Part shown: positions 13,138 to 62,077 of the stretch, in pieces | How positions within the stretch are numbered: the stretch's first letter is position 1 | How the letters are laid out: each line of letters begins with the position of its first letter | Origin: a virus | Taxonomy: Duplodnaviria; Heunggongvirae; Uroviricota; Caudoviricetes | IMG/VR virus record: IMGVR_UViG_3300042946_001496 | Length of the DNA stretch: 64,000 nt | Direction: 5' to 3' (one strand) | Program-made: the position numbers and the translations under genes | Notes under the pieces: model-generated | What the model was told of the DNA's origin: nothing | Seen by the model: only the letters and a program-made list of their open reading frames with translations | Databases searched by the model: none

Positions 13138-13165
13138 AGTTTCTTTCTGGTACGCTGCTACTGTG
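13138..13165 (+). promoter_or_regulatory. conserved GGTACGCTG promoter-like motif (variant tttctttctggtacgctg)
   Basis: One of 13 copies; lies about 40 nt upstream of a GC-rich small gene. Confidence 0.5.
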
Positions 13166-13197
13166 TATCGGAACCATTTTCACAAAGGATATTTGCT

Positions 13198-13368
13198 ATG
13201 GCTAGCGTCGTTGGATACAATAAGTTGGTCGCCGTTATTTTTCAGAAGTATCGTGAGGGCGGCAAGTCGATCAATCTTGCAGAGGCTCGTAAGAAGGCTG
13301 ATAAGATCAGCAAGAATGTTGATTTGAACAACGACGCGGCAATTATCGCTGCTGCCGATATGGTGTGA
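13198..13368 (+). CDS. small GC-rich-codon protein
   Basis: MASVVGYNKLVAVIFQKYREGGKS...; downstream of the conserved motif. Confidence 0.5.
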   Translation: MASVVGYNKLVAVIFQKYREGGKSINLAEARKKADKISKNVDLNNDAAIIAAADMV

Positions 13369-13488
13369 ATTTTAGTCACAAGGGACAGTAGCCGCTATTC
13401 CATATAAGTATGGCGTGGGTGGCTTTGGGGTTGGATCGTAAATGACCCGCTGACCTTATTTTCATTTCATTTAACAAGGAGAATTAAA

Positions 13489-13641
13489 ATGGCTCAGATG
13501 GGTGTTATTGTTCTTGATGGTTCGATTAACGCCGAGGCATGGGCTGCTAAGGTCAAGGCTGAGACTCCCAAGGCTGTTGTCGGTAAGACAGAAACTACGA
13601 TTCAGGGCGTTAATTACATTGTTATCGACAAAGATGGTTGA
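13489..13641 (+). CDS. small GC-rich-codon protein (50 aa)
   Basis: AAGGAG RBS; MAQMGVIVLDGSINAEAWAAKVK...; followed by a terminator. Confidence 0.5.
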   Translation: MAQMGVIVLDGSINAEAWAAKVKAETPKAVVGKTETTIQGVNYIVIDKDG

Positions 13642-13694
13642 TTAAACACACTTGCTACACCGCTCCTTTTGTGATGTGTATAATTGGCAAGTTT

Positions 13695-13728
13695 AAAAGG
13701 GAGGGGTGAAAACCCCTCCCTTTTTTTG
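13695..13728 (+). terminator. rho-independent terminator
   Basis: agggaggggt-gaaa-acccctccct hairpin followed by a T7 run. Confidence 0.8.
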
Positions 13729-13764
13729 TTTTTCATTTATCAATTAAAATAAAAAGAGAATAAA

Positions 13765-14175
13765 ATGGGAATGAAACTTTTCAGTTCAAGCAGCTATGAT
13801 CGTAAAGGAGATTGTCGTTGTGATCCGCCACCGCCATCAACAACAATTAATAACTCGTCAACAATAATTAACAACTATGCAACTCTTCAAAATCCAGATC
13901 CAAACAACTACTCAATTATTGATTCTGCTTATTACTCAAAGTTGACTCATGACGTTCTAGTTGTTAGAATCAAGTATCCAGATTGCACCAATTATGAAGG
14001 AGTAAAGATTCTAGTTTATGAAAACGTGAGTTTGGATGATTTGAAGTCCCAAAAAAGCATTGATCCTCACTTTTCAGAAAACAAGAAATATTACTCCCCT
14101 ATTGCTAGATTTGAACCAACAGAAAAAGGTTGGAAGAACGCAAACAATTTTGCAAAAAGTCTTTTGTCCAATTAA
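13765..14175 (+). CDS. hypothetical protein
   Basis: ORF. Confidence 0.5.
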   Translation: MGMKLFSSSSYDRKGDCRCDPPPPSTTINNSSTIINNYATLQNPDPNNYSIIDSAYYSKLTHDVLVVRIKYPDCTNYEGVKILVYENVSLDDLKSQKSIDPHFSENKKYYSPIARFEPTEKGWKNANNFAKSLLSN

Positions 14176-14194
14176 TCTTTAAAGAAAGAATAAA

Positions 14195-14689
14195 ATGTTT
14201 ATCAGTCATATTATCGCTTGTGGGTATGGCAAGTTTCCGGTTGAAATGCTAGCCAAAGAAAATTGCTATCCAAAAGAAACTGACGATGCAATAATCATTG
14301 CAGAAACCTTTGTTAAAAATGATCATTGGAAAGTAAAACTTTACAAGATTGGAGACGGGTGGCAAACAAACGAATGGAATAAGCGAGGGGCATATCTAGT
14401 TTTTGATATTCCTGCTTCTAAACCTGATCCAGAAGATTTTGTTGGTATTCCAAAAGACAAAAGCGATGATGGTTGTAGTCCCAAGAAACCTTATTGGGTT
14501 GGTAATAACGATCCAGAAGCATTTTATAAGTGGCTGGATGAGGTTCAGCCTAAAGCTAAAGAACTTAAAGATAAGTTTTACAAAGAAGTACTTGGTAAAA
14601 CAGAAGAATTGTTTAATAGCAGTGAAAATTTTCTTAAAGAAGTTTTTGAAAATTTTGAAAAAAATATCAGAAAGTTTAAAGAAAAATGA
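14195..14689 (+). CDS. hypothetical protein
   Basis: ORF; the overlapping alternate-frame ORF is rejected. Confidence 0.5.
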   Translation: MFISHIIACGYGKFPVEMLAKENCYPKETDDAIIIAETFVKNDHWKVKLYKIGDGWQTNEWNKRGAYLVFDIPASKPDPEDFVGIPKDKSDDGCSPKKPYWVGNNDPEAFYKWLDEVQPKAKELKDKFYKEVLGKTEELFNSSENFLKEVFENFEKNIRKFKEK

Positions 14690-14928
14690 ATTGGTTTAAA
14701 AAGCCAGATCCTTTAACAAGCGAACCTGTAGTGGTTACTACTGTCAAGGGTGATAGTGTTCTTTATAGAATGGTCACAGAGGCAGATATTAGACAAGAAG
14801 CATATTTTCTATGGGAGAAAAATGGCAAAGTCGGTTCTAGTGAACGGTATTGGTATGAGGCTGAACAGAAAATAAGAAAAATTTTGCTAAATCAGAAAAA
14901 TGAACAAACCACTAAACAGTTTTCTTAA
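14686..14928 (+). CDS. DUF2934-like protein
   Basis: IRQEAYFLWEKNGKVGSSERYWYEAEQKIR; ends ..KNEQTTKQFS. Confidence 0.5.
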   Translation: MNWFKKPDPLTSEPVVVTTVKGDSVLYRMVTEADIRQEAYFLWEKNGKVGSSERYWYEAEQKIRKILLNQKNEQTTKQFS

Positions 14929-16728: not shown

Positions 16729-16753
16729 TCTGGTGGTACGCTGGTCTGGTGTC
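16729..16753 (+). promoter_or_regulatory. conserved GGTGGTACGCTGG promoter-like motif
   Basis: tctggtggtacgctggtctggtgtc; 34 nt upstream of the HTH gene. Confidence 0.5.
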
Positions 16754-16786: not shown

Positions 16787-17218
16787 ATGTTCCGAGATAT
16801 TTACACCGATCATTTGGACGATAACAAGAACAGTGTTGACTATAGCAAGAGTTATAACGAGCGTAATTTTTATGCTCCTAAGAAGCGTGCGGGTAAGATG
16901 CACGTTAAGCATCGTAAATTTGTGGAAACTATCAAGCGTGTTTTCAGCGAAGGTGGTAATTATTCCGATGTTGCTCGTGAATTGATGGTTAGCCCTAGTG
17001 CCGTCTACACCAGGGTCAAGAAACTCAAGGCTCAAGGCGACAATAGTCTTCCTGCGATTTCTAGTGGTCGTAGTAGTGATGCTGCCGCTGATGCTGTTGG
17101 TATTCTTAATGAACTTGGTGTTCAAGTTGAATATACTCCTCCCGCTTCTCTTGAAAGTATGAGTGCAAGCGTGGCTGTTGAAGCGAATGAGATTCTTCGT
17201 CAGCTTGGAATGAACTAA
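16787..17218 (+). CDS. small HTH DNA-binding protein (sigma-region-4-like paralog family)
   Basis: DVARELMVSPSAVYTRVKKLKAQG plus C-terminal ANEILRQLGMN; GC-rich codons; internal ATG taken as the start. Confidence 0.6.
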   Translation: MFRDIYTDHLDDNKNSVDYSKSYNERNFYAPKKRAGKMHVKHRKFVETIKRVFSEGGNYSDVARELMVSPSAVYTRVKKLKAQGDNSLPAISSGRSSDAAADAVGILNELGVQVEYTPPASLESMSASVAVEANEILRQLGMN

Positions 17219-17225
17219 TCATTTG

Positions 17226-17268
17226 CCGGGGAGTGATGATGAAAAACTCTCACTCCCCGGCATTTTTG
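17226..17268 (+). terminator. rho-independent terminator
   Basis: ccggggagtga...tcactccccgg hairpin followed by cattttt. Confidence 0.75.
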
Positions 17269-21009: not shown

Positions 21010-21041
21010 GTTTCTTTCTGGTACGCTGGGATGGTGTGTCG
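21010..21041 (+). promoter_or_regulatory. conserved GGTACGCTGGG promoter-like motif
   Basis: tttctttctggtacgctgggatggtgtgtcg; 69 nt upstream of the HTH gene. Confidence 0.5.
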
Positions 21042-21109: not shown

Positions 21110-21358
21110 ATGGCTGGTCGTCGTGAAGGTCAGGGTGCAGTTCCGCTTAAGGAGTTTCTTACGGTTGTTGTTCAGACGGTCAATGATGGTGGCACGGTTA
21201 AGATGGCTGCTGATGAGCTTAATCTTACCTCCTCTGCCGTTTCGGCTCGTCTTAGGTATCTGCGTGAGAAGGGCGTTAAGGTTCCTGAGTTTGCTGCAAG
21301 TCGCTCCGTGAATACGGTTGAGCAGGCTAATGCTATTCTTGAACAGTTGATGGGTTGA
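21110..21358 (+). CDS. small HTH DNA-binding protein (sigma-region-4-like paralog family)
   Basis: LKEFLTVVVQTVNDGGTVKMAADELNLTSSAVSARLRYLREKGVKVPEF..ANAILEQLMG. Confidence 0.65.
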   Translation: MAGRREGQGAVPLKEFLTVVVQTVNDGGTVKMAADELNLTSSAVSARLRYLREKGVKVPEFAASRSVNTVEQANAILEQLMG

Positions 21359-21364
21359 TTTTTT

Positions 21365-21403
21365 GCCAAGGGGGAGGTATAATCTCCCCCTTGGCAATTT
21401 TTT
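21365..21403 (+). terminator. rho-independent terminator
   Basis: gccaagggggag..ctcccccttggc hairpin followed by a T run. Confidence 0.8.
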
Positions 21404-23048: not shown

Positions 23049-23075
23049 TCTGGTGGTACGCTGGGAGAGTGGAGG
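23049..23075 (+). promoter_or_regulatory. conserved GGTGGTACGCTGGG promoter-like motif
   Basis: tctggtggtacgctgggagagtggagg; the 3' ggagg doubles as an SD 7 nt before the ATG. Confidence 0.5.
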
Positions 23076-23081
23076 AAATCT

Positions 23082-23339
23082 ATGGATGACTTTATTGATT
23101 ATGGTTTTGAGGAAATAGAAGATTCTGTTAGTTCAAAAGCTAACCGAGTGCCTTTAAAAGATTTTTTGAAAGCCTACGTTCTTGTTGTTAACAAGAACGG
23201 CAACAGCGTTGATGTTGCTAGTATGTTGGGAATTAGCCCACAGGCAGTTAGGCAGCGTGTTGCTAAGTTAATTCTTGGTGGTGCTAAGCTTCCTAAACTT
23301 GGTAACATTTGTCGTAAACAACAATCGTTGGTGTCTTGA
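23082..23339 (+). CDS. small HTH DNA-binding protein (sigma-region-4-like paralog family)
   Basis: LKDFLKAYVLVVNKNGNSVDVASMLGISPQAVRQRVAKLILGGAKLPKLG. Confidence 0.6.
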   Translation: MDDFIDYGFEEIEDSVSSKANRVPLKDFLKAYVLVVNKNGNSVDVASMLGISPQAVRQRVAKLILGGAKLPKLGNICRKQQSLVS

Positions 23340-27385: not shown

Positions 27386-27478
27386 GTGATTGACAAAGCT
27401 TGAGATTTTTGTATCTTGATTTCTTACAGTAGGCGTTCTACTGTTGTTTGTTTGTTTTTTTAACTAAGAAGGATTTAT

Positions 27479-41341: not shown

Positions 41342-41349
41342 ATTTAAAG

Positions 41350-41381
41350 TTTCTTTCTGGTACGCTGGGATGTTGACGGTC
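41350..41381 (+). promoter_or_regulatory. conserved GGTACGCTGGG promoter-like motif
   Basis: tttctttctggtacgctgggatgttgacggtc. Confidence 0.5.
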
Positions 41382-41471: not shown

Positions 41472-41765
41472 ATGAAGAGTGTAATGTTTGCATGGATGGT
41501 TCTGATTGCTGGTGTTTGTTATGGTGGTCAGGAGGCTAGCGTTGTTGTTAGCCCAACTCCTGCTCCTGCTGTAGTTGTTGCTCCTGCTCCTGTTGTTGTG
41601 ACCGCAACCCCTGTTGTTGTTGGTTGTAATGGCGGTTGTTGCAGTGGTAAGTGCGACCCTGTTTACACCACAAAGACTGATGAGCGATCCAGTTGCCGTC
41701 GTACAGTTTTTGGCAAGGTAGTTCGCCGTGATGTTAGGCGAACTGTTGTTGCCCCTGTTCGCTGA
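41472..41765 (+). CDS. secreted small Pro/Val/Ala- and Cys-rich protein
   Basis: AAGGAG RBS; signal peptide MKSVMFAWMVLIAGVCYG; PAPAVVVAPAPVVV; CNGGCCSGKC; GC-rich codons; terminator follows. Confidence 0.55.
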   Translation: MKSVMFAWMVLIAGVCYGGQEASVVVSPTPAPAVVVAPAPVVVTATPVVVGCNGGCCSGKCDPVYTTKTDERSSCRRTVFGKVVRRDVRRTVVAPVR

Positions 41766-41785
41766 AAAACTAACTAATTAGTTTA

Positions 41786-41832
41786 GCCAAGCCCCCTTAA
41801 TCTTTATTGGTTAAGGGGGCTTGGTTTTTTAT
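41786..41832 (+). terminator. rho-independent terminator
   Basis: gccaagccccctta..taagggggcttgg hairpin followed by a T6 run. Confidence 0.8.
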
Positions 41833-42096: not shown

Positions 42097-42124
42097 TAGT
42101 GGTGGTACGCTGGGAGGGTGTCCG
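42097..42124 (+). promoter_or_regulatory. conserved GGTGGTACGCTGGGAGGGTGTC promoter-like motif
   Basis: Best match to the motif consensus. Confidence 0.5.
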
Positions 42125-42163: not shown

Positions 42164-42379
42164 ATGGCTACGGTAATTACCGGCGACAATATCCAACGAT
42201 TTCGACTTCAAGTAATCAAGCAAGCTCTTTACCTTGAAACTAGGGGTATGCGATCTTCAAGGGTTAGTGCCGCTGCTACTGCTAGGGATATTCTGGTTAA
42301 GGTTGGCATCAAGGCGGCTCATAACAAGGCTGCTCTTCTTGTTCAGTTTACCGATTACATCAACAATCTGGAGGGTTAA
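42164..42379 (+). CDS. small GC-rich-codon protein
   Basis: MATVITGDNIQRFRLQVIKQALYLETRG.. Confidence 0.5.
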   Translation: MATVITGDNIQRFRLQVIKQALYLETRGMRSSRVSAAATARDILVKVGIKAAHNKAALLVQFTDYINNLEG

Positions 42380-42382
42380 ATT

Positions 42383-42766
42383 ATGTGGAACTTTAGTGAA
42401 ATTACTCGTAGTGAAGATCGTGCTAAGTTGAGCCTCACTATGAAGTTTAGCCACAGCAATCCTACCGCTGTAGCTGGTGGTGTTTGGACAATTAAGTATA
42501 AGCTCCGTAACCGTCAGGGCAAGTTGACTAATTTGTTCAGCATTAGTGCTCCCGATAGGCTTAAGCCTCGTCGTGAGCATCGTCTTGATGATGTGATGGA
42601 TACTGTTAAGTTCGCTGCATTTCACGATCGCAATAACACTACTGGTCTGCTTGGGTTTAAGACCTTTAAGGTCCGGCTTCGTGAAATTGTTGGTGTTGAT
42701 CTTGCTAATCAAGTTGCTACTATGTTTGCTGAACGTATTAAGAGTGAAATTACCGTCAAAAGTTGA
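42383..42766 (+). CDS. hypothetical protein (GC-rich codons)
   Basis: ORF. Confidence 0.5.
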   Translation: MWNFSEITRSEDRAKLSLTMKFSHSNPTAVAGGVWTIKYKLRNRQGKLTNLFSISAPDRLKPRREHRLDDVMDTVKFAAFHDRNNTTGLLGFKTFKVRLREIVGVDLANQVATMFAERIKSEITVKS

Positions 42767-42777
42767 AAGGAATTACT

Positions 42778-43068
42778 ATGGACGACATTACTCGAAGAGA
42801 AGCGTTGCTTAGGCTTAAGAGAACTCTTACCAAGCAACAAATTGAAGATTTGCAAATTGTAATTAATAGTAAGAAAGCCGCAGGAGATTATACTGGAGTA
42901 GATGATGACGGCGGAAGTTTTTGGGAAGAAAGTATAAGTTCAACTCTTGCGTCTCTTGCTGCTGAACTTAATTTTGATAATGATGCTTTTGATGTTCAAA
43001 ATGAAGATGAAGATGATGATGAAGATGATGAATCTTGGGGATCAGAAGCCTGCTATGAAGGAGAATAA
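42778..43068 (+). CDS. acidic hypothetical protein
   Basis: AAGGA RBS; ATG chosen over the ORF-track TTG; poly-Asp/Glu C-terminus. Confidence 0.5.
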   Translation: MDDITRREALLRLKRTLTKQQIEDLQIVINSKKAAGDYTGVDDDGGSFWEESISSTLASLAAELNFDNDAFDVQNEDEDDDEDDESWGSEACYEGE

Positions 43069-43070
43069 AT

Positions 43071-43331
43071 ATGCACACTCTTCGATTTAGTGCTTATTGT
43101 GGTATGGGTTGGAGTATTAAGTCTGGAACTCTTGATGAATGTAGAGTTGCTGCTGCTAAAATCCTGCGTAAGCGTAAGCGTGAAGGACACAATATTGTTA
43201 AATTGAAAGAAAACAAATGGGAGTGTCAGGAACCTGAAAATTGTATGATGGTTCCAGATACAGCAGGGGTTCTTGTTTTGGAAAACAACAATAAGGATGA
43301 TGATTATGAAGAAGAGTATAACGAAGAATAA
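43071..43331 (+). CDS. hypothetical protein
   Basis: ORF. Confidence 0.5.
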   Translation: MHTLRFSAYCGMGWSIKSGTLDECRVAAAKILRKRKREGHNIVKLKENKWECQEPENCMMVPDTAGVLVLENNNKDDDYEEEYNEE

Positions 43332-43632
43332 TCTTCTTGATACTTTCGTAGAAGTTGAAAGTATTTTTATTATTGGGCGAAGATGGTTTGAAAAAACCAA
43401 TGGAAATACTTATCATACATCCGAGATTTATGTGAATAATAATTTTGTTCACAAAATCAGCATGACCTATGGTTATGGACAACAATACTTGTGGACTGCT
43501 CTTAATTGGCTTAAGAACAATAAGTATTTAAGTTCAATCTCTGAAAAAGATAACCCTTCAATTTTTTGTCGAGAAAACAACATTAAGTTAAATCACACTG
43601 TTGCTGATGTTGGTAGAAAAAAAGATTTGTAA
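43306..43632 (+). CDS. hypothetical protein with NNLLDTF motif
   Basis: MKKSITKNNLLDTFVEVE. Confidence 0.4.
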   Translation: MKKSITKNNLLDTFVEVESIFIIGRRWFEKTNGNTYHTSEIYVNNNFVHKISMTYGYGQQYLWTALNWLKNNKYLSSISEKDNPSIFCRENNIKLNHTVADVGRKKDL

Positions 43633-43677: not shown

Positions 43678-43705
43678 GTTGGTGGTACGCTAGGGTGGTG
43701 TCGGG
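43678..43705 (+). promoter_or_regulatory. conserved GGTGGTACGCTAGGGTGGTGTCGGG promoter-like motif
   Basis: 46 nt upstream of the HTH gene. Confidence 0.5.
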
Positions 43706-43750: not shown

Positions 43751-44059
43751 ATGGCTGGTCGTAAGGAGGGTCAAAAGGCTGTTGATCTTCGTAAGTTCCT
43801 CACTACTCTTGTTGAGGTTCACAACGAGGGCGGCACGCTTAAGATGGTTGCTGATGCTCTTGGTATTAGTTCGGCTGCGGTCAGTAGCCGAGTTAGCACT
43901 CTTCGCAAGAAGGGTGTTAAGCTGCCTGAGTTTCAGCGTGGACGTTCGGCAAACATTGCCGATGAGGCTACTAACATCCTTGATGAGCTGGGTTTTGCCG
44001 GCGATGAGGATGAGGATGAGGATTCCGATGAGGATGAGGATTCCGATGAGGATGAGTGA
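43751..44059 (+). CDS. small HTH DNA-binding protein (sigma-region-4-like paralog family)
   Basis: LRKFLTTLVEVHNEGGTLKMVADALGISSAAVSSRVSTLRKKGVKLPEF..ATNILDELG plus a poly-DE tail; close paralog of the 21110 gene. Confidence 0.65.
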   Translation: MAGRKEGQKAVDLRKFLTTLVEVHNEGGTLKMVADALGISSAAVSSRVSTLRKKGVKLPEFQRGRSANIADEATNILDELGFAGDEDEDEDSDEDEDSDEDE

Positions 44060-44085: not shown

Positions 44086-44125
44086 TGCCCACCCGCTTGA
44101 AATATAGCGGGTGGGCTTTTTTTTT
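44086..44125 (+). terminator. rho-independent terminator
   Basis: gcccacccgc..gcgggtgggc hairpin followed by a T9 run. Confidence 0.85.
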
Positions 44126-44689: not shown

Positions 44690-44714
44690 TTCTGGTGGTA
44701 CGCTATTTCCCCGG
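44690..44714 (+). promoter_or_regulatory. conserved GGTGGTACGCT promoter-like motif (3' half divergent)
   Basis: ttctggtggtacgctatttccccgg. Confidence 0.45.
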
Positions 44715-47528: not shown

Positions 47529-47556
47529 TCTGGTGGTACGCTCGTTGGGTGTCGCC
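47529..47556 (+). promoter_or_regulatory. conserved GGTGGTACGCT..GGGTGTCGCC promoter-like motif
   Basis: 88 nt upstream of the 47644 gene. Confidence 0.5.
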
Positions 47557-50246: not shown

Positions 50247-50274
50247 AGTTGGTGGTACGCTGGGAGGGTGTCGC
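50247..50274 (+). promoter_or_regulatory. conserved GGTGGTACGCTGGGAGGGTGTCGC promoter-like motif
   Basis: Consensus copy; 74 nt upstream of the start. Confidence 0.5.
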
Positions 50275-50347: not shown

Positions 50348-50809
50348 ATGGACAACCACGTTAGACTCGCAATCAGCAAGGTTAAAGACGATGGTGTTAG
50401 GGACAATGTTGCTCCCGGTGAGTATAATATTGATGCCACTATTAGGATTCGTGGAAATCTTGTGGTTGGCGAAGATTATGAGCGAGCCACAAGTACGGTT
50501 TTGCCGCACACTGAAGTTTTGGCTTACGCTTTGCATCTTGCTGGTATTCAGCAAGATAGGGCAATCAGCATCATCAGAGATAGCGTTAAGGCTTGTTTGA
50601 CCAATGGCGAAAGTGCCGTTGGTAAGATTAGGGATAACATTCCTACTATTGAGGCTGAGATCAATCGAATCAAGCAAGAGATCGTCAACCAACTTCCCAA
50701 GCAACAGTGTAAGGGTAATGTTAAGTTTGCTCTTACTACTATTGAGTCTGTTGAGGGGGACAAGACTATTCAGGAAGCTAACGATATTCTTCGTGAGCTT
50801 ATGGGTTAA
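50348..50809 (+). CDS. member of the HTH-paralog family, sharing the family's C-terminal signature
   Basis: C-terminal EANDILRELMG matches EQANAILEQLMG / ANEILRQLGMN / ATNILDELG. Confidence 0.5.
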   Translation: MDNHVRLAISKVKDDGVRDNVAPGEYNIDATIRIRGNLVVGEDYERATSTVLPHTEVLAYALHLAGIQQDRAISIIRDSVKACLTNGESAVGKIRDNIPTIEAEINRIKQEIVNQLPKQQCKGNVKFALTTIESVEGDKTIQEANDILRELMG

Positions 50810-50826
50810 CAACAAGGAAATAAATC

Positions 50827-51204
50827 ATGAAGGATTGGGAAGTCCAAGCTAATCGCATGATGATAGGTGTTGTTGTCTTTCTTGCTGCGTTGGTTCCGGC
50901 GACTTTTTGGTATGATGTTAATGTAAAGCAACCAAAAGACAAGATTAATTTTGAAAATCAAATCAAAGAATTAATTGAACTTCGTGCTAAAACTTTTGCG
51001 TTTGGCGGCGAAGTAGTTGGAAAGTTAAGAGATGGCAGAACCGTTACTTTGTATGTTGTAAGAACAACAAGTTTTCCCCATCATGTTTATGTAGTTGATA
51101 ACAGTTCAAGCGTTAGCACAAACAAAACAGTTCAAACCAGCAAGAATAGTTTTGAAAATCAAGTTGAAACCTTTGTAGAAAGTGAAATTGAAAGTGGACA
51201 CTAA
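50827..51204 (+). CDS. membrane-anchored hypothetical protein
   Basis: N-terminal TM helix. Confidence 0.5.
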   Translation: MKDWEVQANRMMIGVVVFLAALVPATFWYDVNVKQPKDKINFENQIKELIELRAKTFAFGGEVVGKLRDGRTVTLYVVRTTSFPHHVYVVDNSSSVSTNKTVQTSKNSFENQVETFVESEIESGH

Positions 51205-51490
51205 AACCAATTACAGTAATCTTACCACATTCAGAAACAAGCCAGTCTACAGTTTTTATGATGCTCGTTACATGATGGATCTTGGCTGTGGGGATGATGT
51301 TTGGCGTATTTGCGGCATTAGAGACGGAAAACCAATTATGCCAGGCTTTCCTATCAGTATTGATAGGGAGAGCGATACTTTTGAAACAACCAGAAGTATT
51401 TACAAAATCGAAAATTATGATTGCGATAAAACTAAGTTTTGGGATCAAGTTGAAAGTGATATGAAACGTGGTGGATTTGAAATTCACTAA
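51182..51490 (+). CDS. hypothetical protein
   Basis: ORF. Confidence 0.45.
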   Translation: MKLKVDTKTNYSNLTTFRNKPVYSFYDARYMMDLGCGDDVWRICGIRDGKPIMPGFPISIDRESDTFETTRSIYKIENYDCDKTKFWDQVESDMKRGGFEIH

Positions 51491-51529
51491 AATATTCTGC
51501 TTAAGCAGAAAAAATAAACTCTAACATAG

Positions 51530-51568
51530 AAGGTATGTTGCTTAATCGGCAACATACCTTTTTTTGTT
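51530..51568 (+). terminator. rho-independent terminator
   Basis: aaggtatgttgc..ggcaacatacctt hairpin followed by a T7 run; preceded by a smaller ctgcttaagcag hairpin. Confidence 0.8.
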
Positions 51569-54787: not shown

Positions 54788-54815
54788 TCTAGTGGTACGC
54801 TGGGTTTCTGGAGAG
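54788..54815 (+). promoter_or_regulatory. conserved GTGGTACGCTGGG promoter-like motif
   Basis: tctagtggtacgctgggtttctggagag. Confidence 0.5.
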
Positions 54816-55717: not shown

Positions 55718-55907
55718 CTTTAATAAAGTTGATCGGCTGAATATCAAGTTGCTATCAGGTAAAGAGTATATTGGTATGCACTGTATTCGCAATTTCACCA
55801 ATCCTGAAAGCAAAAGACTAACTTTCTTTAATCCAAAAGAAGGTTCCATCATGTCAATTAATTGGAAACTAATTGAGCATGTTTACTTTTATGAAAATGA
55901 AGATTGA
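55704..55907 (+). CDS. hypothetical protein
   Basis: AAGGAG RBS upstream of an internal ATG. Confidence 0.4.
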   Translation: MKMDDFNKVDRLNIKLLSGKEYIGMHCIRNFTNPESKRLTFFNPKEGSIMSINWKLIEHVYFYENED

Positions 55908-55914
55908 TAAAATC

Positions 55915-55941
55915 TCTGTTCGGTGGTACGCTGGTGCTAAG
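55915..55941 (+). promoter_or_regulatory. conserved GGTGGTACGCTGG promoter-like motif
   Basis: tctgttcggtggtacgctggtgctaag. Confidence 0.5.
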
Positions 55942-55973
55942 TTACAGTTTCATAACAAAAAATTGGATAAAAA

Positions 55974-56649: not shown

Positions 56650-56673
56650 CACAATTATATAACTTAACGGAAA

Positions 56674-56713
56674 CTCAGGCAAGGACTAACTATCCTTGCC
56701 TGAGTTTTTTTGT
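56674..56713 (+). terminator. rho-independent terminator
   Basis: ctcaggcaagga..tccttgcctgag hairpin followed by a T8 run. Confidence 0.85.
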
Positions 56714-57712: not shown

Positions 57713-57748
57713 ATTGCTTGAAAACTTTGTTAGTTGTTATTTATAAAA

Positions 57749-57850: not shown

Positions 57851-57979
57851 ATTATATTAAAACTATAGGTGAAGAAAAGTTAGAAGAAATATTAGGCATG
57901 GATCGATCGTGGGATACACGCCCTGAATTTGAAAATTATAGTTTAGTTGATGATATTATCAAAAATTATATTGCGTAAT

Positions 57980-58210: not shown

Positions 58211-58283
58211 GCGAGTAATAAGTAGGTCTAAATCTTATTGAAGAGCTTTTTTAAATTACTTATTTTCATTCATATATAAAAAC

Positions 58284-58928
58284 ATGGAATTCAAAAATTG
58301 GCTTATAGAACATGATTATTTAAAAGACCTTGATCCACTCTCACATGAAAAAGAAAACGATAGAGCAAACGCATTAAATAAATTTTTTCCTGACGGCGAT
58401 ACATATCCGCAAATTAATCTTGAAAACAAAAGAATTGTAATGAGTAAGTACAGGCAGCCGCCAATTGTTATACCATACAAAGGCACGCGGAGCGATAAAC
58501 CAAAAGGTGGATTGTGGTATGGAGAAGGCAATGAGTGGATTAGCTTTATACAATATAATATCCCAAATCTTATTGCCATGTTTGTTCATGAAATTTTTAT
58601 AAATCCATCAAGAATGTGTATAATTCATGATGAAAAAACATTAGAAGATTTTACTTGGAAATATCGTCTAGATGCCGAATCTGAAGTAATTGATTGGGAT
58701 AAAGTTGCTAGCGAATTTGATGGAATAGAGTGTTTTGGCAATGGATTCGATAAAGAAAATTGGCAATATAGTTGGGATGTTCCAAGCGGTTGTATTTGGA
58801 ACAACACAGCATTAAAAGATTCTAAATTGTTATCTGTCTACGATGTGCATAACAAAAAATTCAGAAAAGCAAACGAATTAGGCGTGTATGCAGGAAACGC
58901 AAGTAAAATAAAAAATCCAATTAGATAA
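58284..58928 (+). CDS. hypothetical protein with MEFKNWL leader
   Basis: ORF; interrupts the Zn-ribbon array. Confidence 0.5.
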   Translation: MEFKNWLIEHDYLKDLDPLSHEKENDRANALNKFFPDGDTYPQINLENKRIVMSKYRQPPIVIPYKGTRSDKPKGGLWYGEGNEWISFIQYNIPNLIAMFVHEIFINPSRMCIIHDEKTLEDFTWKYRLDAESEVIDWDKVASEFDGIECFGNGFDKENWQYSWDVPSGCIWNNTALKDSKLLSVYDVHNKKFRKANELGVYAGNASKIKNPIR

Positions 58929-58955
58929 AAGTAAGTATGAGCGATCGAAATCTAA

Positions 58956-59201
58956 ATGATAAAAAAATTATTAGACACTTTTGTTGAAGAAAAGATTTTT
59001 TGTCCATCTAGATGTTATACTTGGGCAGAAACTCGTGATCACACTGGTCATTATCCGACAAAAGACATTTTTTTAAAAAAGATTACCTATATTGATGGTG
59101 TAATAATTTACAAGTGTCCAGGATGTGGTGGTAAATATTCTAAAGAGTTTCTTATTGCTTATGAAATTCATCATGACATAAAGCTTTTTTTGAAACCTTA
59201 A
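58956..59201 (+). CDS. Zn-ribbon LLDSF-family small protein
   Basis: MIKKLLDTFVEEKIFCPSRC...CPGCGG. Confidence 0.55.
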   Translation: MIKKLLDTFVEEKIFCPSRCYTWAETRDHTGHYPTKDIFLKKITYIDGVIIYKCPGCGGKYSKEFLIAYEIHHDIKLFLKP

Positions 59202-59202
59202 A

Positions 59203-59538
59203 ATGAACAAACTGCTTGATAGATTTTTAGGCTTAAAGTGTCCTACCTGTGGCAAGTCTCTAGAACTAAAAACTAAAAAAGAAATTTTACTTTTTACTGC
59301 ACTGTCACCGCCCGTTTACTCTTATCTTGAAAAATTAAACTTAGAAGATAAAGTGCCTGTTTGTTTAGATCACAAAAATAAGAGCGGAAAAGAAATTGGT
59401 ATGTGGGTTTGGACACCATTTTCTACATATGCTATTGAAAAAATGCATAAACAATGTCCATCTGGTTGGGTGCTTCATCCTAACGGAATTGAACCTTTAA
59501 ACAAACTAAAAGAATACTTCAATGAACAAACTGCTTGA
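59203..59538 (+). CDS. Zn-ribbon LLDSF-family small protein
   Basis: MNKLLDRFLGLKCPTCGKS...; ends LKEYFNEQTA. Confidence 0.55.
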   Translation: MNKLLDRFLGLKCPTCGKSLELKTKKEILLFTALSPPVYSYLEKLNLEDKVPVCLDHKNKSGKEIGMWVWTPFSTYAIEKMHKQCPSGWVLHPNGIEPLNKLKEYFNEQTA

Positions 59539-59641
59539 TAGATTTTTAGATTTAAAGTGTCCTACCTGTGGCAAGTCTCTAGAACTAAAAACTAAAAAAG
59601 AAATTTTACTTTTTTTGTTCCACCTAATATTACCGGGTCGC
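59522..59641 (+). pseudogene. truncated duplicate of the 59203 gene (first about 100 nt nearly identical), reading into inserted DNA
   Basis: MNKLLDRFLDLKCPTCGKSLELKTKKEILLF then unrelated sequence and a stop. Confidence 0.45.
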
Positions 59642-59708
59642 TAAGATGGCTAACAGAAAGCTAATTTTATGGATTACTATTCATATTGAAAAGAAGTGAA
59701 GATAACAA

Positions 59709-59933
59709 ATGATTCAAGTTTATTGTGACAATCCATTAAATGCCTCATTAGAATTTGTGAAGGGGCTGCCTTCTATGAGATCGTGCCGTCTTTGGTCACG
59801 GCGGGAGTATCCAGTCGTATCTGTTAAAGTGTTTATTTCCAACAATTTTAATTTCGTCAACAAAAAAGAAGCTCAGCTACATGAAGTGTCCGATGTTGTA
59901 ATTCAGTTCAATTTGATAGAGACCTGTCATTAA
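59709..59933 (+). CDS. hypothetical protein inside the inserted segment
   Basis: ORF; GC-richer DNA. Confidence 0.3.
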   Translation: MIQVYCDNPLNASLEFVKGLPSMRSCRLWSRREYPVVSVKVFISNNFNFVNKKEAQLHEVSDVVIQFNLIETCH

Positions 59934-59980
59934 CTTGATGTGCCCGAATTTTTTGCTATACTTAGATAAGGAGAAAAATA

Positions 59981-60268
59981 ATGACCACTAAACAAAGAAT
60001 TCAAAATATCAAAAGAGAAATTGAATGGTATGGTGTTCGTAAAACTATTGCTGAGGCTATGGTTGAATGTGGCAAATTAGGATTTGAATTTTCTGGTCAT
60101 GGAGCAGGGTTTGGTGGTGAAGACTTTAATTTAGTAGATAATAAAAAAAACCTTTACATAAATTTTTGTGACAAGGGTAGAAGTTGCGAAGTTATGATAT
60201 GCGAAAATGAAATCGCCGTATTTATAGGAACGATTGGAAAGGCAATGAAGTTTCTACATAATTCATAA
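59981..60268 (+). CDS. hypothetical protein inside the inserted segment
   Basis: AAGGAG RBS; MTTKQRIQNIKREIEWYG.. Confidence 0.4.
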   Translation: MTTKQRIQNIKREIEWYGVRKTIAEAMVECGKLGFEFSGHGAGFGGEDFNLVDNKKNLYINFCDKGRSCEVMICENEIAVFIGTIGKAMKFLHNS

Positions 60269-60394
60269 TATCCATCGCCAAATAAAATTAAGAATGGTAC
60301 AAATGCCAGACAAAAAGCATACTATTGTAACGGCTATTAAAAAGCATCCAGAAATAACAAATTGTGATTGAATTTGGGTTCTTCTTTTATATTC

Positions 60395-60477
60395 TCTATA
60401 CGCTAAATAAGACCCGATTTCTACCTTAAAAAACTATCTGAACTAAAAGAATACTTCAATGAACAAACTGCTTGATA
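60395..60477 (+). pseudogene. C-terminal remnant of a Zn-ribbon LLDSF-family gene (...DFYLKKLSELKEYFNEQTA-stop)
   Basis: Matches the C-terminus of the 60736 and 59203 paralogs; no upstream body. Confidence 0.4.
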
Positions 60478-60698
60478 GTTTCTTAGATTTAAAGTGTCCT
60501 TGGCATGACACAAAAATAAGCATACAAAATGAAACTTTATTTTGTATGAAATGTGATGCGGAAACCCTCTCTGGAAATTGGAATATTAATAGAATTAATA
60601 CTCTTTTAGCCGCCACCGAATCTGTTTGGAGAAATAGAATTGAACGTTTAAAAAAACTAAAAGAATACTATAAAAAACAAGAACAAACTACTTTATAG
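60459..60698 (+). CDS. Zn-ribbon LLDSF-family small protein
   Basis: MNKLLDSFLDLKCPWHDTKIS..CMKCD; ends LKEYYKKQEQTTL. Confidence 0.55.
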   Translation: MNKLLDSFLDLKCPWHDTKISIQNETLFCMKCDAETLSGNWNINRINTLLAATESVWRNRIERLKKLKEYYKKQEQTTL

Positions 60699-60699
60699 T

Positions 60700-60927
60700 T
60701 TTTTAGATTTAAAGTGTCCTATTCATGGTTGTAAATTGAAACCGTTAGAAGGAAGTTTATTTTGTCCAACTGAAATAATACTAAAGCTCCATCCAGACGA
60801 AATTTTTTGTGGAAATTGGAATCTTGAAAGAATTGAAAACGTTTTGAGCCTCAACGGATCATATATATCCGATTTCTACCTTAAAAAACTAAATGAACTA
60901 AAAGAATACTTTAATGAACAGAAATAA
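60700..60927 (+). CDS. Zn-ribbon LLDSF-family paralog lacking an ATG (junction ATG mutated to AAG); TTG-initiated or pseudogene
   Basis: ..KLLYSFLDLKCPIHGCKLKPLEGSLFCP..; ends LKEYFNEQK. Confidence 0.35.
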   Translation, partial: FLDLKCPIHGCKLKPLEGSLFCPTEIILKLHPDEIFCGNWNLERIENVLSLNGSYISDFYLKKLNELKEYFNEQK

Positions 60928-60999
60928 ACTATTTGATAGTTTTGTTGAACGAAAACGTTTTGTTGTAGGATATGATCAAAATGGAAATTTAATTTTTAA

Positions 61000-61212
61000 A
61001 TGAAAAAATCTAACAAAGAACTGCTAGACAGCTTTAAAGTTTATTATTGTCCTAATTCTGGAAGATCCTACCCAGTAAACAACCACCCTAAAACAAAATT
61101 AATTAAAACCTTGTTTCAAAATAAATTTAATTATACTTGGTACGAAGGTTACGAGTGTCCAATTTGTCTTTGGCACTGGCTGGAGCATGAATTAAATGAA
61201 CAAACTAAGTAG
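61000..61212 (+). CDS. Zn-ribbon LLDSF-family small protein
   Basis: MKKSNKELLDSFKVYYCPNSG...CPICLWHW; preceded by a 29-aa remnant (60914-61003). Confidence 0.55.
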   Translation: MKKSNKELLDSFKVYYCPNSGRSYPVNNHPKTKLIKTLFQNKFNYTWYEGYECPICLWHWLEHELNEQTK

Positions 61213-61423
61213 TTTTATAGAAAAAAAATGTCCTTGGCACAATCTTCAATTAACAGGACCAGACTTAAGTTGTGAAAAGTGTGGATTCTGGACGAATGAA
61301 AGAGTCAATAGTTTATCCACCTGGCAAAACTATTTTTTATTTATTAAAAGTGCTATGCGCAATGTTGAAGACGGAAGTGAACTACGATTGCAATTACTTA
61401 AAGAATATTATGATGAACAATAA
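61196..61423 (+). CDS. Zn-ribbon LLDSF-family small protein
   Basis: MNKLSSFIEKKCPWHNLQ..CEKCG; ends LKEYYDEQ. Confidence 0.55.
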   Translation: MNKLSSFIEKKCPWHNLQLTGPDLSCEKCGFWTNERVNSLSTWQNYFLFIKSAMRNVEDGSELRLQLLKEYYDEQ

Positions 61424-61565
61424 AAACCAAAAACTGCTTGATTCTTTCGCCAAACCAGTGTGCAAATACTGTAATAAGGAATTGAATATTTACAAAGTCA
61501 TAATGCGTGGTATTTGTTTTAACGAAAAATGTAGCCATAGATTTAAACCTGTAAATATATCATAA
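61410..61565 (+). CDS. Zn-ribbon LLDSF-family small protein
   Basis: MMNNKNQKLLDSFAKPVCKYCNKE...NEKCSHRFK. Confidence 0.5.
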   Translation: MMNNKNQKLLDSFAKPVCKYCNKELNIYKVIMRGICFNEKCSHRFKPVNIS

Positions 61566-61622
61566 AAACTATATTCGAGAAATACGCACTAATTGTCACC
61601 GTTGGTATGGTGTCATGCAATC

Positions 61623-61856
61623 ATGAATCATTCTAACAAAAACTTATTAGATAGCTTCTCTTGGACCATTAACAATGGACAGCCTACAGATTATAAATAT
61701 ATTGAAGCCATGTCTCGCCAAGGACGTTGCTATTGCTGTGCCGTTACTCACCCCCGTCTTCTTGTGATTTTAGATAGAGATGACGATATAATTAAATACA
61801 GAGAAATTAGTATGAGAGATTATCTTAAATACCCTTTGCCCCAGCATGTAAAATGA
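61623..61856 (+). CDS. Zn-ribbon LLDSF-family small protein
   Basis: MNHSNKNLLDSFSWTINNGQ...CYCC. Confidence 0.5.
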   Translation: MNHSNKNLLDSFSWTINNGQPTDYKYIEAMSRQGRCYCCAVTHPRLLVILDRDDDIIKYREISMRDYLKYPLPQHVK

Positions 61857-62026
61857 ACGAATCTAACAAAAAACTCTTAGACAGCTTTGAAATTCCTGAA
61901 TGCTGCAGATGTGGCAGCACTTTGGTTAACCGTGTATCTACCAAGAATTTACAGCGAATTTACTATTGTCAGCCTTGCTCGTGTTACACTGTATATCCTG
62001 AAAACGAAACAAAACAAGCTTCTTAA
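61853..62026 (+). CDS. Zn-ribbon LLDSF-family small protein
   Basis: MNESNKKLLDSFEIPECCRCGS...CQPCSC; 57 aa. Confidence 0.5.
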   Translation: MNESNKKLLDSFEIPECCRCGSTLVNRVSTKNLQRIYYCQPCSCYTVYPENETKQAS

Positions 62027-62058
62027 TTAGATTTGAAAAATGAAATTATTATCAACAA

Positions 62059-62077
62059 TTTGGTGATACGCTAGGGT
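62059..62077 (+). promoter_or_regulatory. conserved GGTGATACGCTAGGGT promoter-like motif immediately abutting the start codon
   Basis: The motif's 3' half is replaced by the ATG; this would give a leaderless or very short-leader transcript. Confidence 0.4.

What the first reader, a model, noticed from the sequence alone, without database searches (positions are those of the whole stretch)
13138..62077. 13 copies of a GC-rich roughly 25-nt motif (tctGGTGGTACGCTGGGagGGTGTCg) forming promoter - small gene - terminator cassettes
- The motif always sits on the plus strand, 1-90 nt upstream of a start codon, in an otherwise roughly 30% GC genome.
- The genes it precedes use GC-rich codons (CGT, GGT, GCT, CTT) unlike the bulk genome.
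- Those genes are followed by textbook intrinsic terminators (13695, 17226, 21365, 41786, 44086, 51530, 56674).

This looks like a dedicated, probably very strong, promoter class. It could serve a phage-encoded RNA polymerase or sigma factor (compare the 23-bp T7/SP6 promoters) or a late or middle class of host RNAP promoters. The promoter, recoded small gene and terminator form self-contained expression cassettes that appear inserted at many places.
Basis: seen in the sequence. Interest (0 to 1): 0.8.

Follow-up and report, generated by a model that had tools for sequence, protein, structure and literature searches.

The report
Phage promoter class with GC-rich −10
The repeated GC-rich motif is the core of about a dozen promoters of an uncultured freshwater giant phage; its layout fits a sigma-factor-dependent bacterial RNA polymerase rather than a T7-like phage polymerase, so it is a new example of a familiar kind of phage gene control.

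Summary
The 8-mer GGTACGCT occurs 12 times on the + strand in intergenic DNA (0.25 expected on both strands together). It lies 19-105 nt before start codons with Shine-Dalgarno sites. The genes behind it avoid A-ending codons, and seven strong terminators close the units.

The conserved part is G(-16)TGG-TACGCT(-7), six or seven variable bases, then TGT.

Across related metagenomic phages the hexamer drifts (TACGCT, TACGAT, TACACT, TACGTT), but T-12, A-11 and T-7 never change. Some copies carry a perfect TTGACA 16-17 bp upstream. One copy drives a tRNA-Glu gene where another lineage has TTGAAA-16-TATAAT.

This is the anatomy of an extended -10 promoter of the sigma-70 family, not a T7-type promoter.

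There are two classes, which orthologous genes keep:
- class A: tcTGGTGG-TACGCT, nine copies
- class B: GTTTCTTTCTGG-TACGCT, three copies

Syntenic relatives of 187-357 kb encode a sigma-70-family protein that diverges where sigma-70 reads the upstream end of the -10 element. I infer it reads these promoters. The window itself has no sigma or polymerase gene.

Verdict: a new member of a known kind, of moderate interest.

The parts
13139..13166 (+). Class B promoter: GTTTCTTTCTGG-TACGCT (hexamer 13151-13156), then gctactg-TGT
   Evidence: The orthologous class B copy is in L140 at 6841.
13198..13641 (+). Two small genes driven by the 13139 promoter: 56 aa (13198-13368, GC 0.47) and 50 aa (13489-13641)
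13695..13724 (+). Intrinsic terminator: 13-bp stem, 7 GC pairs, T-run
16732..16752 (+). Class A promoter: GGTGG-TACGCT, then ggtctgg-TGT
   Evidence: The ortholog in L140 at 7737 keeps class A.
16787..17218 (+). HTH protein, 143 aa (HTH_28; GcrA-like), GC 0.43
17224..17268 (+). Intrinsic terminator: GCCGGGGAGUGA...UCACUCCCCGGC followed by a U-run
   Evidence: dG -30.3 kcal/mol, z -7.1
21010..21037 (+). Class B promoter: GTTTCTTTCTGG-TACGCT, then gggatgg-TGT
   Evidence: The ortholog in L140 at 9919 is also class B.
21110..21358 (+). HTH protein, 82 aa, paralog of the 43751 gene, GC 0.50
21363..21397 (+). Intrinsic terminator: 16-bp stem
23052..23072 (+). Class A promoter: GGTGG-TACGCT, then gggagag-TGG. 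It lies 19 nt before the ATG.
23082..23339 (+). HTH protein, 85 aa, paralog
41349..41376 (+). Class B promoter: GTTTCTTTCTGG-TACGCT
41472..41765 (+). Small Ala/Val/Pro-rich protein (97 aa) with a hydrophobic N-terminus, GC 0.50
41785..41826 (+). Intrinsic terminator: 18-bp stem
42101..42121 (+).
   Evidence: The orthologous promoter stands before the MATVI... gene in L052, L056 and L068.
42164..43632 (+). Five-gene unit behind the 42101 promoter (42164-42379, 42383-42766, 42763-43068, 43071-43331, 43273-43632)
43681..43701 (+). Class A promoter: GGTGG-TACGCT, then agggtgg-TGT
   Evidence: Phylogenetic footprint across 8 orthologous leaders.
43751..44059 (+). HTH protein, 102 aa, with an acidic tail, GC 0.51. 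It is the founding member of the paralog family.
44087..44116 (.). Bidirectional intrinsic terminator
44694..44704 (+). Class A promoter core. There is no TGT downstream, and the 85-aa gene at 44746-45003 is not GC-rich.
47532..47552 (+). Class A promoter before the gene at 47644-48132
50251..50271 (+).
50348..51490 (+). Three-gene unit (50348-50809, 50827-51204, 51182-51490)
51528..51562 (+). Intrinsic terminator
54791..54811 (+). Class A promoter variant (AGTGG-TACGCT) before the 60-aa membrane protein gene at 54849-55031
55895..55942 (+). Class A promoter with a -35-like TTGATA 17 bp upstream of TACGCT. It precedes the genes at 55974-56321 and 56305-56649.
56669..56709 (+). Intrinsic terminator: 17-bp stem
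62062..62072 (+). Doubtful 13th copy (GGTGATACGCT), 5 nt before an AT-rich paralog gene

Best explanation
The motif is the -10 region of a family of strong promoters that do not need a -35 element. They are read by a sigma-dependent, bacterial-type RNA polymerase.

**Layout**
- G-16 T-15 G-14 G-13 forms an extended -10 'TG' element.
- T-12 A-11 C-10 G-9 C-8 T-7 is the -10 hexamer.
- A G-rich discriminator of six or seven variable bases follows.
- I predict the start at the conserved G/TGT, 7-9 nt after the hexamer.

**Two classes share this core and differ only in the spacer**
- Class A: tcTGGTGG.
- Class B: GTTTCTTTCTGG.

**What they drive**
They drive short units, many of which encode small HTH proteins. 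Most of these genes are written in codons that avoid a final A, and strong intrinsic terminators close the units.

**Most likely reader (inferred, not shown)**
The host core enzyme carrying a phage-encoded sigma-70-family factor. Syntenic relatives encode such a factor, and it diverges where sigma-70 reads the upstream end of the -10 element. A canonical TTGACA/TATAAT promoter class, read by the host's own sigma, co-exists in the same genome.

**Status of each step**
- Shown: the sequence anatomy, its conservation, and its position relative to genes, a tRNA and terminators.
- Inferred: the start site, the identity of the sigma, and the expression level.
For: **1. Over-representation and orientation**
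- 12 + strand intergenic copies, against 0.25 expected on both strands.
- All point the same way as the genes.

**2. Conservation pattern across lineages**
- The hexamer reads TACGCT, TACGAT, TACACT or TACGTT in different lineages.
- T-12, A-11 and T-7 are invariant. So are T-15/G-14 in class A, and G-13.

**3. Phylogenetic footprint**
- In 8 orthologous leaders only GTGGTAC..T, a TGT 8-10 nt later, the Shine-Dalgarno site and the ATG are invariant.
- The 7 bases in between vary.

**4. -35 elements at the canonical distance in a subset**
- Class B: 2 perfect TTGACA and 2 matches of 5/6 among 18 copies. Shifted-register controls gave at most one 5/6 match and no perfect one.
- Window site 55927 has TTGATA-17.

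**5. The motif drives a tRNA gene**
- tRNA-Glu is preceded by TTGACA-17-TGGTACACT in L072 and by TTGATA-17-TGGTACGAT in L056.
- In L065 the same tRNA has TTGAAA-16-TATAAT.
- So the hexamer occupies the place of a sigma-70 -10 element, and the signal acts on transcription, not translation.

**6. Initiation must be de novo**
- In L056 terminator stems end 27-28 nt before the -10 hexamer of the next motif.

**7. Leader hairpin in relatives**
- A leader hairpin with compensatory changes begins 8-10 nt after the hexamer, at the conserved TGT. That is 1-3 nt after a start placed 7 nt downstream.

**8. A sigma-70-family protein in relatives**
- The window is syntenic with IMG/VR contig 3300027741_000022.
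- That contig and a 357-kb ENA contig carry the motif and encode a 288-aa sigma-70-family protein.
- Its Sigma70_r4 score is 36 bits against a cut-off of 24.1. Its best PDB matches are SigA/HrdB at 1e-15, covering regions 1.2-2.3 and 4.2. The alignment stops where region 2.4 begins.

**9. Class identity is kept between orthologous genes**.

**10. Canonical promoters co-exist**
- Intergenic examples are at 7471, 21355/21391, 27390 and 56729.

**11. Published precedents**
- P23-45 middle and late promoters are extended -10 promoters with TG(TG) at -14 to -17 and no -35 element (PMC5758890).
- The C. glutamicum sigma-A consensus is tgngnTA(c/t)aaTgg (PMC10024154).
Against: - No 5' ends have been mapped, so the start site is a prediction.
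- The window has no sigma gene. Whether this particular phage encodes the relatives' sigma was not tested.
- C-10, G-9 and C-8 make a hexamer that should melt poorly, and they are more tightly conserved than sigma-70 recognition alone would require.
- Class B has C or T rather than T at -15, and a conserved pyrimidine spacer that no known sigma region reads.
- Class A shows no overall -35 enrichment.
- Relatives' genomes are 187-381 kb and only about 100 kb of them was inspected, so an additional phage polymerase cannot be excluded.
Confidence: 0.6

Rival explanations
1. These are extended -10 promoters read by the host's own primary sigma holoenzyme, with no phage sigma involved. Phage proteins that disable -35 recognition might remodel the enzyme, as in Thermus phage P23-45 or T4 AsiA.
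For: - The TG at -15/-14, the TAnnnT hexamer and the G-rich discriminator all fit a primary-sigma extended -10 promoter.
- The tRNA-Glu promoters combine the motif with a canonical -35 element.
- P23-45 sets the precedent (PMC5758890).
- The actinobacterial sigma-A consensus tgngnTA(c/t)aaTgg looks alike (PMC10024154).
- The window has no sigma gene.
Against: - Positions -10 to -8 and -13, which a primary sigma reads weakly, are almost invariant within each genome and drift only between lineages. That pattern looks like co-evolution with a dedicated reader.
- Ordinary TTGACA/TATAAT promoters co-exist in the same genome.
- Relatives that carry the motif encode their own sigma-70-family protein.
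Confidence: 0.25
2. One reading: a promoter for a phage-encoded single-subunit (T7-like) polymerase or another non-canonical phage polymerase, with the start inside or just after GGGAGGG.
For: - The block is compact, strictly oriented and highly conserved, and the window's consensus has GGGAG after it.
- The relatives are giant phages, and some giant phages carry their own polymerases.
Against: - The bases directly after TACGCT vary between copies and between orthologs (ggg, agg, gtg, ctg, ttg, cgt, att). T7-type promoters are most conserved from -4 to +3 (established knowledge).
- The T/A/T invariants, the TG at -15/-14 and TTGACA at 16-17 bp are features of sigma-70-type promoters.
- No polymerase subunit was found in the 64-kb window or in about 100 kb of relatives.
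Confidence: 0.07
3. The motif acts in RNA, as a processing site, a 5' stabiliser or a translation element within longer transcripts.
For: - It is always on the sense strand upstream of genes.
- Some relatives have a conserved leader hairpin nearby.
Against: - It precedes a tRNA gene.
- It sits 27-28 nt after strong terminators in L056.
- No Rfam family matches.
- The window's leaders have no shared or unusually stable fold (z from -0.25 to -1.9).
- The motif itself is not self-complementary.
Confidence: 0.03
4. The motif is an operator, that is a binding site for the multiplied small HTH proteins encoded next to it, and not itself the polymerase recognition element.
For: - Four HTH paralogs in the window, and more in relatives, sit directly behind the motif. 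This would suit autoregulation.
- The class-specific spacer elements need a reader.
Against: - The core is asymmetric and strictly oriented, unlike typical dimer operators.
- It also precedes non-HTH genes and a tRNA.
- The -10 geometry and the -35 partners explain the core without any regulator.
- HTH proteins could still read the class A or B spacer, which is compatible with the main explanation.
Confidence: 0.05

Closest known systems
Middle and late promoters of Thermus phage P23-45 (extended -10 class)
   Same: - TG(TG) lies just upstream of the -10 element (positions -14 to -17).
- There is no -35 element.
- A whole temporal class of phage genes uses them alongside ordinary -10/-35 promoters (PMC5758890).
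- Class A reads GGTG-G-TACGCT at the same positions.
   Different: - P23-45 uses the host sigma-A with two small RNA-polymerase-binding proteins. Here relatives encode a sigma-70-family protein of their own.
- The hexamer here is GC-rich (TACGCT) with an invariant C-10.
- A second class replaces the TG element with a pyrimidine-rich spacer.
Phage-encoded sigma factors with their own promoter class (T4 gp55 late TATAAATA; SPO1 gp28 and gp33/34; phiEco32 gp36). From established knowledge, not tested here.
   Same: - A phage sigma redirects the host core enzyme to a phage-specific, tightly conserved element.
- In T4 late promoters this is a -10-type element alone.
   Different: - The sigma in the relatives is much closer to group 1/2 sigmas. 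Regions 1.2-2.3 and 4.2 align to SigA/HrdB, and its nearest cellular homologs are from Planctomycetota.
- The consensus is GC-rich.
- That this sigma reads the motif is inferred only.
Housekeeping sigma-A promoters of Corynebacterium glutamicum: tgngnTA(c/t)aaTgg, with a weak -35
   Same: G at -16 and -14, TA(c) in the hexamer, T-7, then GG; the -35 element is poorly conserved (PMC10024154, PMC3917453).
   Different: - That consensus is statistical and loose, whereas the phage motif is nearly invariant.
- Nothing shows that the host is an actinobacterium. The sigma's homologs point to Planctomycetota.
T7/T3/SP6 promoters
   Same: Repeated, oriented and highly conserved; G-rich sequence follows in the window's consensus.
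   Different: - A T7-type promoter is one contiguous block from -17 to +6, with an AT-rich -4 to -1 and a conserved start (established knowledge).
- Here the block ends at -7 and is followed by variable bases.
- No single-subunit polymerase was found.
PeSL cassettes (promoter-early plus stem-loop) of T4-type phages (recalled from Arbiol et al. 2010; not read here)
   Same: A promoter and a terminator-like stem-loop bracket small ORFs in plastic regions.
   Different: - PeSLs were proposed to drive gene shuffling.
- Here the units are at orthologous positions in relatives. Only paralog duplication of the HTH units suggests any mobility.

Membership tests
Sigma-70-family promoter, extended -10 class | A -10 hexamer with T-12, A-11 and T-7 as the conserved positions | tested here: met
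   The hexamer reads TACGCT, TACGAT, TACACT or TACGTT in 97 distinct copies from the window and related loci. T, A and T are invariant.
Sigma-70-family promoter, extended -10 class | TG at -15/-14, one base upstream of the hexamer | tested here: met
   - Class A: GTGG-TAC is invariant in all lineages.
- Class B keeps G-14 but has C or T at -15, so this feature is met for class A only.
Sigma-70-family promoter, extended -10 class | The -35 element is dispensable; when present it is TTGACA-like at 16-18 bp | tested here: met
   - There is no general -35 element.
- Perfect TTGACA at 16 or 17 bp occurs in 2 of 18 class B copies and in the L072 tRNA-Glu promoter.
- TTGATA-17 occurs at window 55927 and L056 11409.
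Sigma-70-family promoter, extended -10 class | Transcription starts 6-9 nt downstream of the hexamer | not testable with these tools
   Indirect only:
- A conserved TGT lies 8-10 nt after the hexamer.
- In relatives a leader hairpin starts at that TGT, 8-10 nt after the hexamer.
Sigma-70-family promoter, extended -10 class | Recognition by an RNA polymerase holoenzyme that contains a sigma-70-family subunit | not testable with these tools
   This needs in vitro transcription. A candidate phage sigma exists in syntenic relatives but not within the window.
T7-like single-subunit RNA polymerase promoter | One contiguous conserved block of about 20 bp that runs through the start site | tested here: not met
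   Information content falls to near zero at -6 to -1 and rises again at the TGT. Orthologous leaders vary at these positions.
T7-like single-subunit RNA polymerase promoter | The phage encodes the matching polymerase | tested here: inconclusive
   None was found in the window or in about 100 kb of relatives. The full genomes of 187-381 kb were not available.
Sigma-70 protein family (the 288-aa protein of relatives, L107:4514-5380) | Region 2 and region 4 domains | tested here: met
   - Sigma70_r4 scores 36 bits against a cut-off of 24.1.
- Sigma70_r2 scores 21.6 bits, below the 24 cut-off in this copy, but the domain is on record for homologs.
- NCBIfam sigma70-ECF superfamily scores 44.5 against a cut-off of 42.9.
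- PDB SigA/HrdB matches at 1e-15 in two segments.
Mobile promoter cassettes (PeSL-like) | The same cassette at non-orthologous positions in related genomes | tested here: not met
   Promoters at 13146, 16732, 21017, 42101 and 43681 have orthologous counterparts before orthologous genes in L140, L052, L056, L068 and L072.

The most novel reading that the evidence does not exclude
A family of giant freshwater phages, possibly of Planctomycetota, carries a sigma-70-family factor that diverges where sigma-70 reads the upstream end of the -10 element. This sigma reads an unusually GC-rich -10 element (GGTACGCT).

Two different spacer signatures on this shared core would be read by separate phage factors. 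Candidates are the multiplied small HTH proteins that these promoters themselves express. That would give two temporal classes through a form of sigma co-activation not described before.

The coupled avoidance of A-ending codons would mark a self-contained high-expression regime tuned to a GC-rich host.
Probability: 0.2. Interest if true: 0.6.

Novelty: new member of a known kind. Interest (0 to 1): 0.4.

Why it matters
- It gives a usable promoter definition for an uncultured family of 187-381 kb freshwater phages: GTGG-TACGCT or TTTCYTCYYGG-TACGCT, then 7 bases, then TGT.
- With that definition, transcription units and candidate highly expressed genes can be called from sequence alone.
- It links the motif to a candidate phage sigma whose nearest cellular relatives are from Planctomycetota. 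That yields a testable host hint and a testable sigma-promoter pair.
- A GC-rich -10 hexamer with an invariant C-10 is also a natural test case for how far -10 recognition can drift.
- It does not reveal a new kind of transcription system.

Tried and rejected
- **15-mer scans of IMG/VR.** TGGTGGTACGCTGGG gave 50 single hits, all chance matches in coding DNA. TGTTCGTGGTACGMT gave 66 stretches, and only the four from contig 3300027741_000022 proved related.
- **Similarity to known phages.** No nucleotide match to 50,697 phage records. The HTH protein had no tblastn match. Single-protein searches of IMG/VR were empty.
- **Huge phage LR756502.** It is the best UvdE match but lacks the motif.
- **Literature search for the motif strings.** It returned only PCR primers.
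- **Rfam.** Nothing in the window.
- **Sigma-54 and ECF layouts.** Considered by eye and rejected: there is no TTGC at the -12 position, and the two GC-rich half-sites are too close together.
- **Upstream hairpin as in phage N4.** Seen at 3 sites only, so not general.
- **General -35 enrichment.** Absent for class A.
- **GGTACAAT repeats next to a 40%-identical sigma in L147/L148.** They are antisense to their genes in a 60% GC island, so they are not the same element.
- **Motif enrichment around planctomycete sigma homologs.** 15 copies on the + strand and 13 on the - strand, against about 36 expected per strand.
- **Folding the window's 5' leaders.** No shared structure.
- **Finding the window phage's own sigma.** The two look-ups I could still spend returned other lineages.

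Full report

Yes.
- The 11-mer GGTGGTACGCT is found 11 times with at most one mismatch, against 0.14 expected.
- The 8-mer GGTACGCT is found 14 times, against 0.25 expected.
- Twelve of those copies are on the + strand in intergenic DNA.
- Two are on the - strand inside ORFs (20757-20764 and 33848-33855; for the second).
It sits 5 nt before an AT-rich gene, and I treat it as doubtful.

Each good copy lies 19-105 nt before an ATG with a Shine-Dalgarno sequence.

The first genes behind the motif have 34-51% GC, and eight of the twelve are at 43-51%. The window average is 33%.

The codon shift is real, but it is better described as avoidance of A-ending codons:

| Codon | First genes behind the motif | Other + strand genes |
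|---|---|---|
| TTA | 0.03 | 0.33 |
| ATA | 0.04 | 0.32 |
| AGA | 0.11 | 0.56 |
| AAA | 0.29 | 0.78 |

**2. What kind of genome is this?**

- There is no nucleotide match to known phages.
- Nearly all ORFs are small and on the + strand. Pfam and PHROGs hits include SSB, phosphoesterase, UvdE, PcfJ-like, an AAA ATPase and ART-PolyVal.
- No sigma or polymerase was detected.
- Distant protein relatives lie in giant phages of 235-642 kb.
- Close relatives exist only in freshwater metagenomes.
- The window is syntenic, at 40-65% protein identity over window 11.3-30.9 kb, with the 187.6-kb IMG/VR contig 3300027741_000022.
- A further relative is a 357-kb ENA contig.

**3. Anatomy of the motif, using the relatives**

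The motif recurs in all relatives, almost always on the gene strand and in intergenic DNA. L056 has 17 copies in 12.8 kb.

Between lineages the flanks change, but a core stays. In the table, "GTGG-" marks the invariant bases directly upstream of the hexamer.

| Lineage | Core |
|---|---|
| Window | GTGG-TACGCT |
| L056, L068 | GTGG-TACGCT or GTGG-TACGAT |
| L072, L054, L070 | TACACT |
| L065 | TACGTT |

If the hexamer is numbered -12 to -7, then:
- the invariant positions are G-16, T-15, G-14, G-13, T-12, A-11, C-10 and T-7;
- positions -9 and -8 drift;
- information content drops to near zero at -6 to -1, then rises again at a TGT 8-10 nt after the hexamer.

An alignment of eight orthologous leaders of the HTH gene shows the same footprint. 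Only GTGGTAC..T, that TGT, the Shine-Dalgarno site and the ATG are invariant.

T-12, A-11 and T-7 are the three positions that sigma-70-family factors read most strictly. T-15/G-14 is the extended -10 element (established knowledge; restated in PMC3917453 and PMC5758890). In the window the discriminator is often GGGA.

**4. Evidence that it is a transcription start signal of the sigma-70 type**

(a) The motif drives a tRNA gene.
- In L072 tRNA-Glu is preceded by TTGACA-17-TGGTACACT.
- In L056 the same tRNA is preceded by TTGATA-17-TGGTACGAT.
- In L065 it has a textbook TTGAAA-16-TATAAT.
- So the hexamer sits where a -10 element sits, and the signal cannot be a translation element.

(b) Some copies have a -35 partner at the canonical distance.
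- Among 18 distinct class B copies, two have a perfect TTGACA and two have a 5/6 match at 16-18 bp.
- Shifted-register controls gave at most one 5/6 match and no perfect one.
- Class A shows no general enrichment. This is what an extended -10 class would be expected to show.

(c) In L056 strong terminator stems end 27-28 nt before the -10 hexamer of the next motif, so transcripts must start anew.

(d) In relatives, a leader hairpin starts 8-10 nt after the hexamer, at the conserved TGT. That is 1-3 nt after a start placed 7 nt downstream. It shows compensatory changes: GUGAG/CUCAC, GUCAG/CUGAC and GAGAG/CUCUC.

(e) The window's leaders share no fold, and Rfam finds nothing.

**5. Two classes**

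- Nine window copies read tcTGGTGG-TACGCT (class A).
- Three copies (13139, 21010, 41349) read GTTTCTTTCTGG-TACGCT exactly (class B).
- Class B is the better conserved class across lineages: AAGTTTCYTCCYGG-TACGCT in L107/L145, L142 and L143.
- Orthologous genes keep their class: 13146 matches L140 6841 (B), 21017 matches L140 9919 (B), and 16732 matches L140 7737 (A).
- In L107 a B copy and an A copy stand in tandem.

The classes are therefore functionally distinct, and they may be temporal classes. What reads the spacer is unknown.

**6. Who reads it?**

The IMG/VR relative, the 357-kb contig and a third lineage each encode a protein of about 285 aa of the sigma-70 family.
- Sigma70_r4 scores above the Pfam cut-off.
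- NCBIfam matches are to RpoD, SigB and RpoS types.
- The best PDB matches are actinobacterial SigA/HrdB at 1e-15, in two segments covering regions 1.2-2.3 and 4.2.
- Region 4.2 keeps RERIRQ.
- The alignment to SigA stops after FKFSTY. The next residues, FVNVLYRNFQR, stand where E. coli sigma-70 has ATWWIRQAITR (canonical sequence recalled from established knowledge). That helix reads the upstream end of the -10 element.

The family is conserved in about 20 metagenomic clusters. Its nearest cellular homologs are almost all from Planctomycetota (about 75 of 80 genome hits). I take that only as a hint to the host.

No motif precedes the sigma gene itself. Canonical TTGACA/TATAAT candidates occur in other intergenic gaps of the window, at 7471, 21355/21391, 27390 and 56729.

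A cascade is the simplest reading: host sigma, then phage sigma, then the motif promoters. It remains inferred, for two reasons:
- the window has no sigma gene;
- I could not recover the sigma of this very phage.

The host primary sigma acting on an extended -10 class, as in P23-45 (PMC5758890), remains a serious rival.

**7. The cassette idea and the codon bias**

- The units do have the form promoter - one to five small genes - terminator.
- Four of them encode paralogous HTH proteins, and this family is further multiplied in relatives.
- However, the units are at conserved positions in relatives, so they are inherited rather than recently inserted.
- A gene with the same GC-rich, terminator-closed style (27479-27862) uses a canonical promoter.
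- Avoidance of A-ending codons, with a preference for CGT, GGT, GCT, CTT and AAG, is what translational selection in highly expressed genes would give.
- It would also be expected if the host is much more GC-rich than the phage. That second point is inference.

**8. Comparison with known systems, and verdict**

- The closest functional parallel is the extended -10 middle/late promoter class of Thermus phage P23-45.
- The next closest are promoter classes read by phage sigmas (T4 gp55, SPO1, phiEco32).
- The motif fails the defining features of T7-type promoters.
- It is a new consensus, for an uncultured giant-phage family, of a known kind of element.
- The unusual points are the GC-rich hexamer with an invariant C-10 and the two spacer-defined classes on one core.
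- Interest is moderate (0.4).

Noticed in passing
window 168-3566: Eleven tandem paralogous small ORFs (about 57-92 aa). They share an N-terminal M.xLDSFD...K.KC..C.KYF pattern with a CxxC motif. None carries the motif.
   Followed up: no
window 56753-62290: A second array of small paralogous ORFs (..KLLDSF...KCPWH/KCPTCG..), with repeats of up to 98% identity (59202-59295 against 59521-59614).
   Followed up: no
window 3567-3920: A 354-nt stretch free of ORFs and richer in GC (about 0.41), ending in a T-run. It has no Rfam match and may be a non-coding RNA.
   Followed up: partly
window 29152-29316: Tandem 24-nt repeats (CCACCAACACCAACGGCTACAATA, about 6 copies) inside overlapping ORFs on both strands (28687-29574 on + and 29149-29613 on -).
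   Followed up: no
window 20757-20767 (- strand): An exact GGTGGTACGCT on the minus strand inside the + strand ORF 20724-20996, next to a duplicated gene segment (20384-20466 and 20796-20878). It is either an antisense promoter or a coincidence. A second minus-strand 8-mer at 33848-33855 lies inside a minus-strand ORF and looks incidental.
   Followed up: partly
window 27390-27916: A canonical TTGACA-16-TATCTT promoter, a GC-rich (0.47) gene for a secreted-looking protein (27479-27862), and a strong terminator (27882-27916). The 'GC-rich gene plus terminator' style is therefore not exclusive to the motif.
   Followed up: partly
L052 10913, L054 761, L055 1550, L056 4829/7940/12343/12605, L065 6336/13078, L068 10801, L070 7768, L072 5023/10634: A conserved 5' leader hairpin, (G)UGAG-CGAUUGAGA-CUCA(C), in front of one HTH paralog (MAGRIAGKA/MSGRP...). 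It has compensatory stem changes and a conserved loop, and it is absent from the window. It may be a stabiliser or an autoregulatory site.
   Followed up: partly
L072 10555-10625: Two motif copies in inverted orientation flank a 36-nt AT-rich spacer. The minus-strand copy points into tRNA-Glu (10456-10528) in antisense.
   Followed up: no
L148 18700-20912 (IMG/VR 3300032334_002567, 381 kb): An island of about 60% GC inside a 36% GC giant-phage contig. It carries 8 copies of CGAACACTTMTMTAGGGTACAAT, each upstream of small minus-strand genes on the opposite strand. This is a different repeated promoter-like element.
   Followed up: partly
L107:4514-5380 and homologs; loci L155-L234: The phage sigma's nearest cellular homologs share the signature peptides GFKFSTY[FC] and FRKYNYLKY. 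Almost all are from Planctomycetota (Pirellulales, Lacipirellulaceae, Phycisphaerae, Brocadiia). This is a host hint, and it points to a poorly described sigma subfamily.
   Followed up: partly
L142:3472-4032 and L145:4715-5275: A second small protein (186 aa) with a weak sigma region 4 / HTH_17 signature is encoded about 6 kb upstream of the sigma gene in relatives.
   Followed up: no
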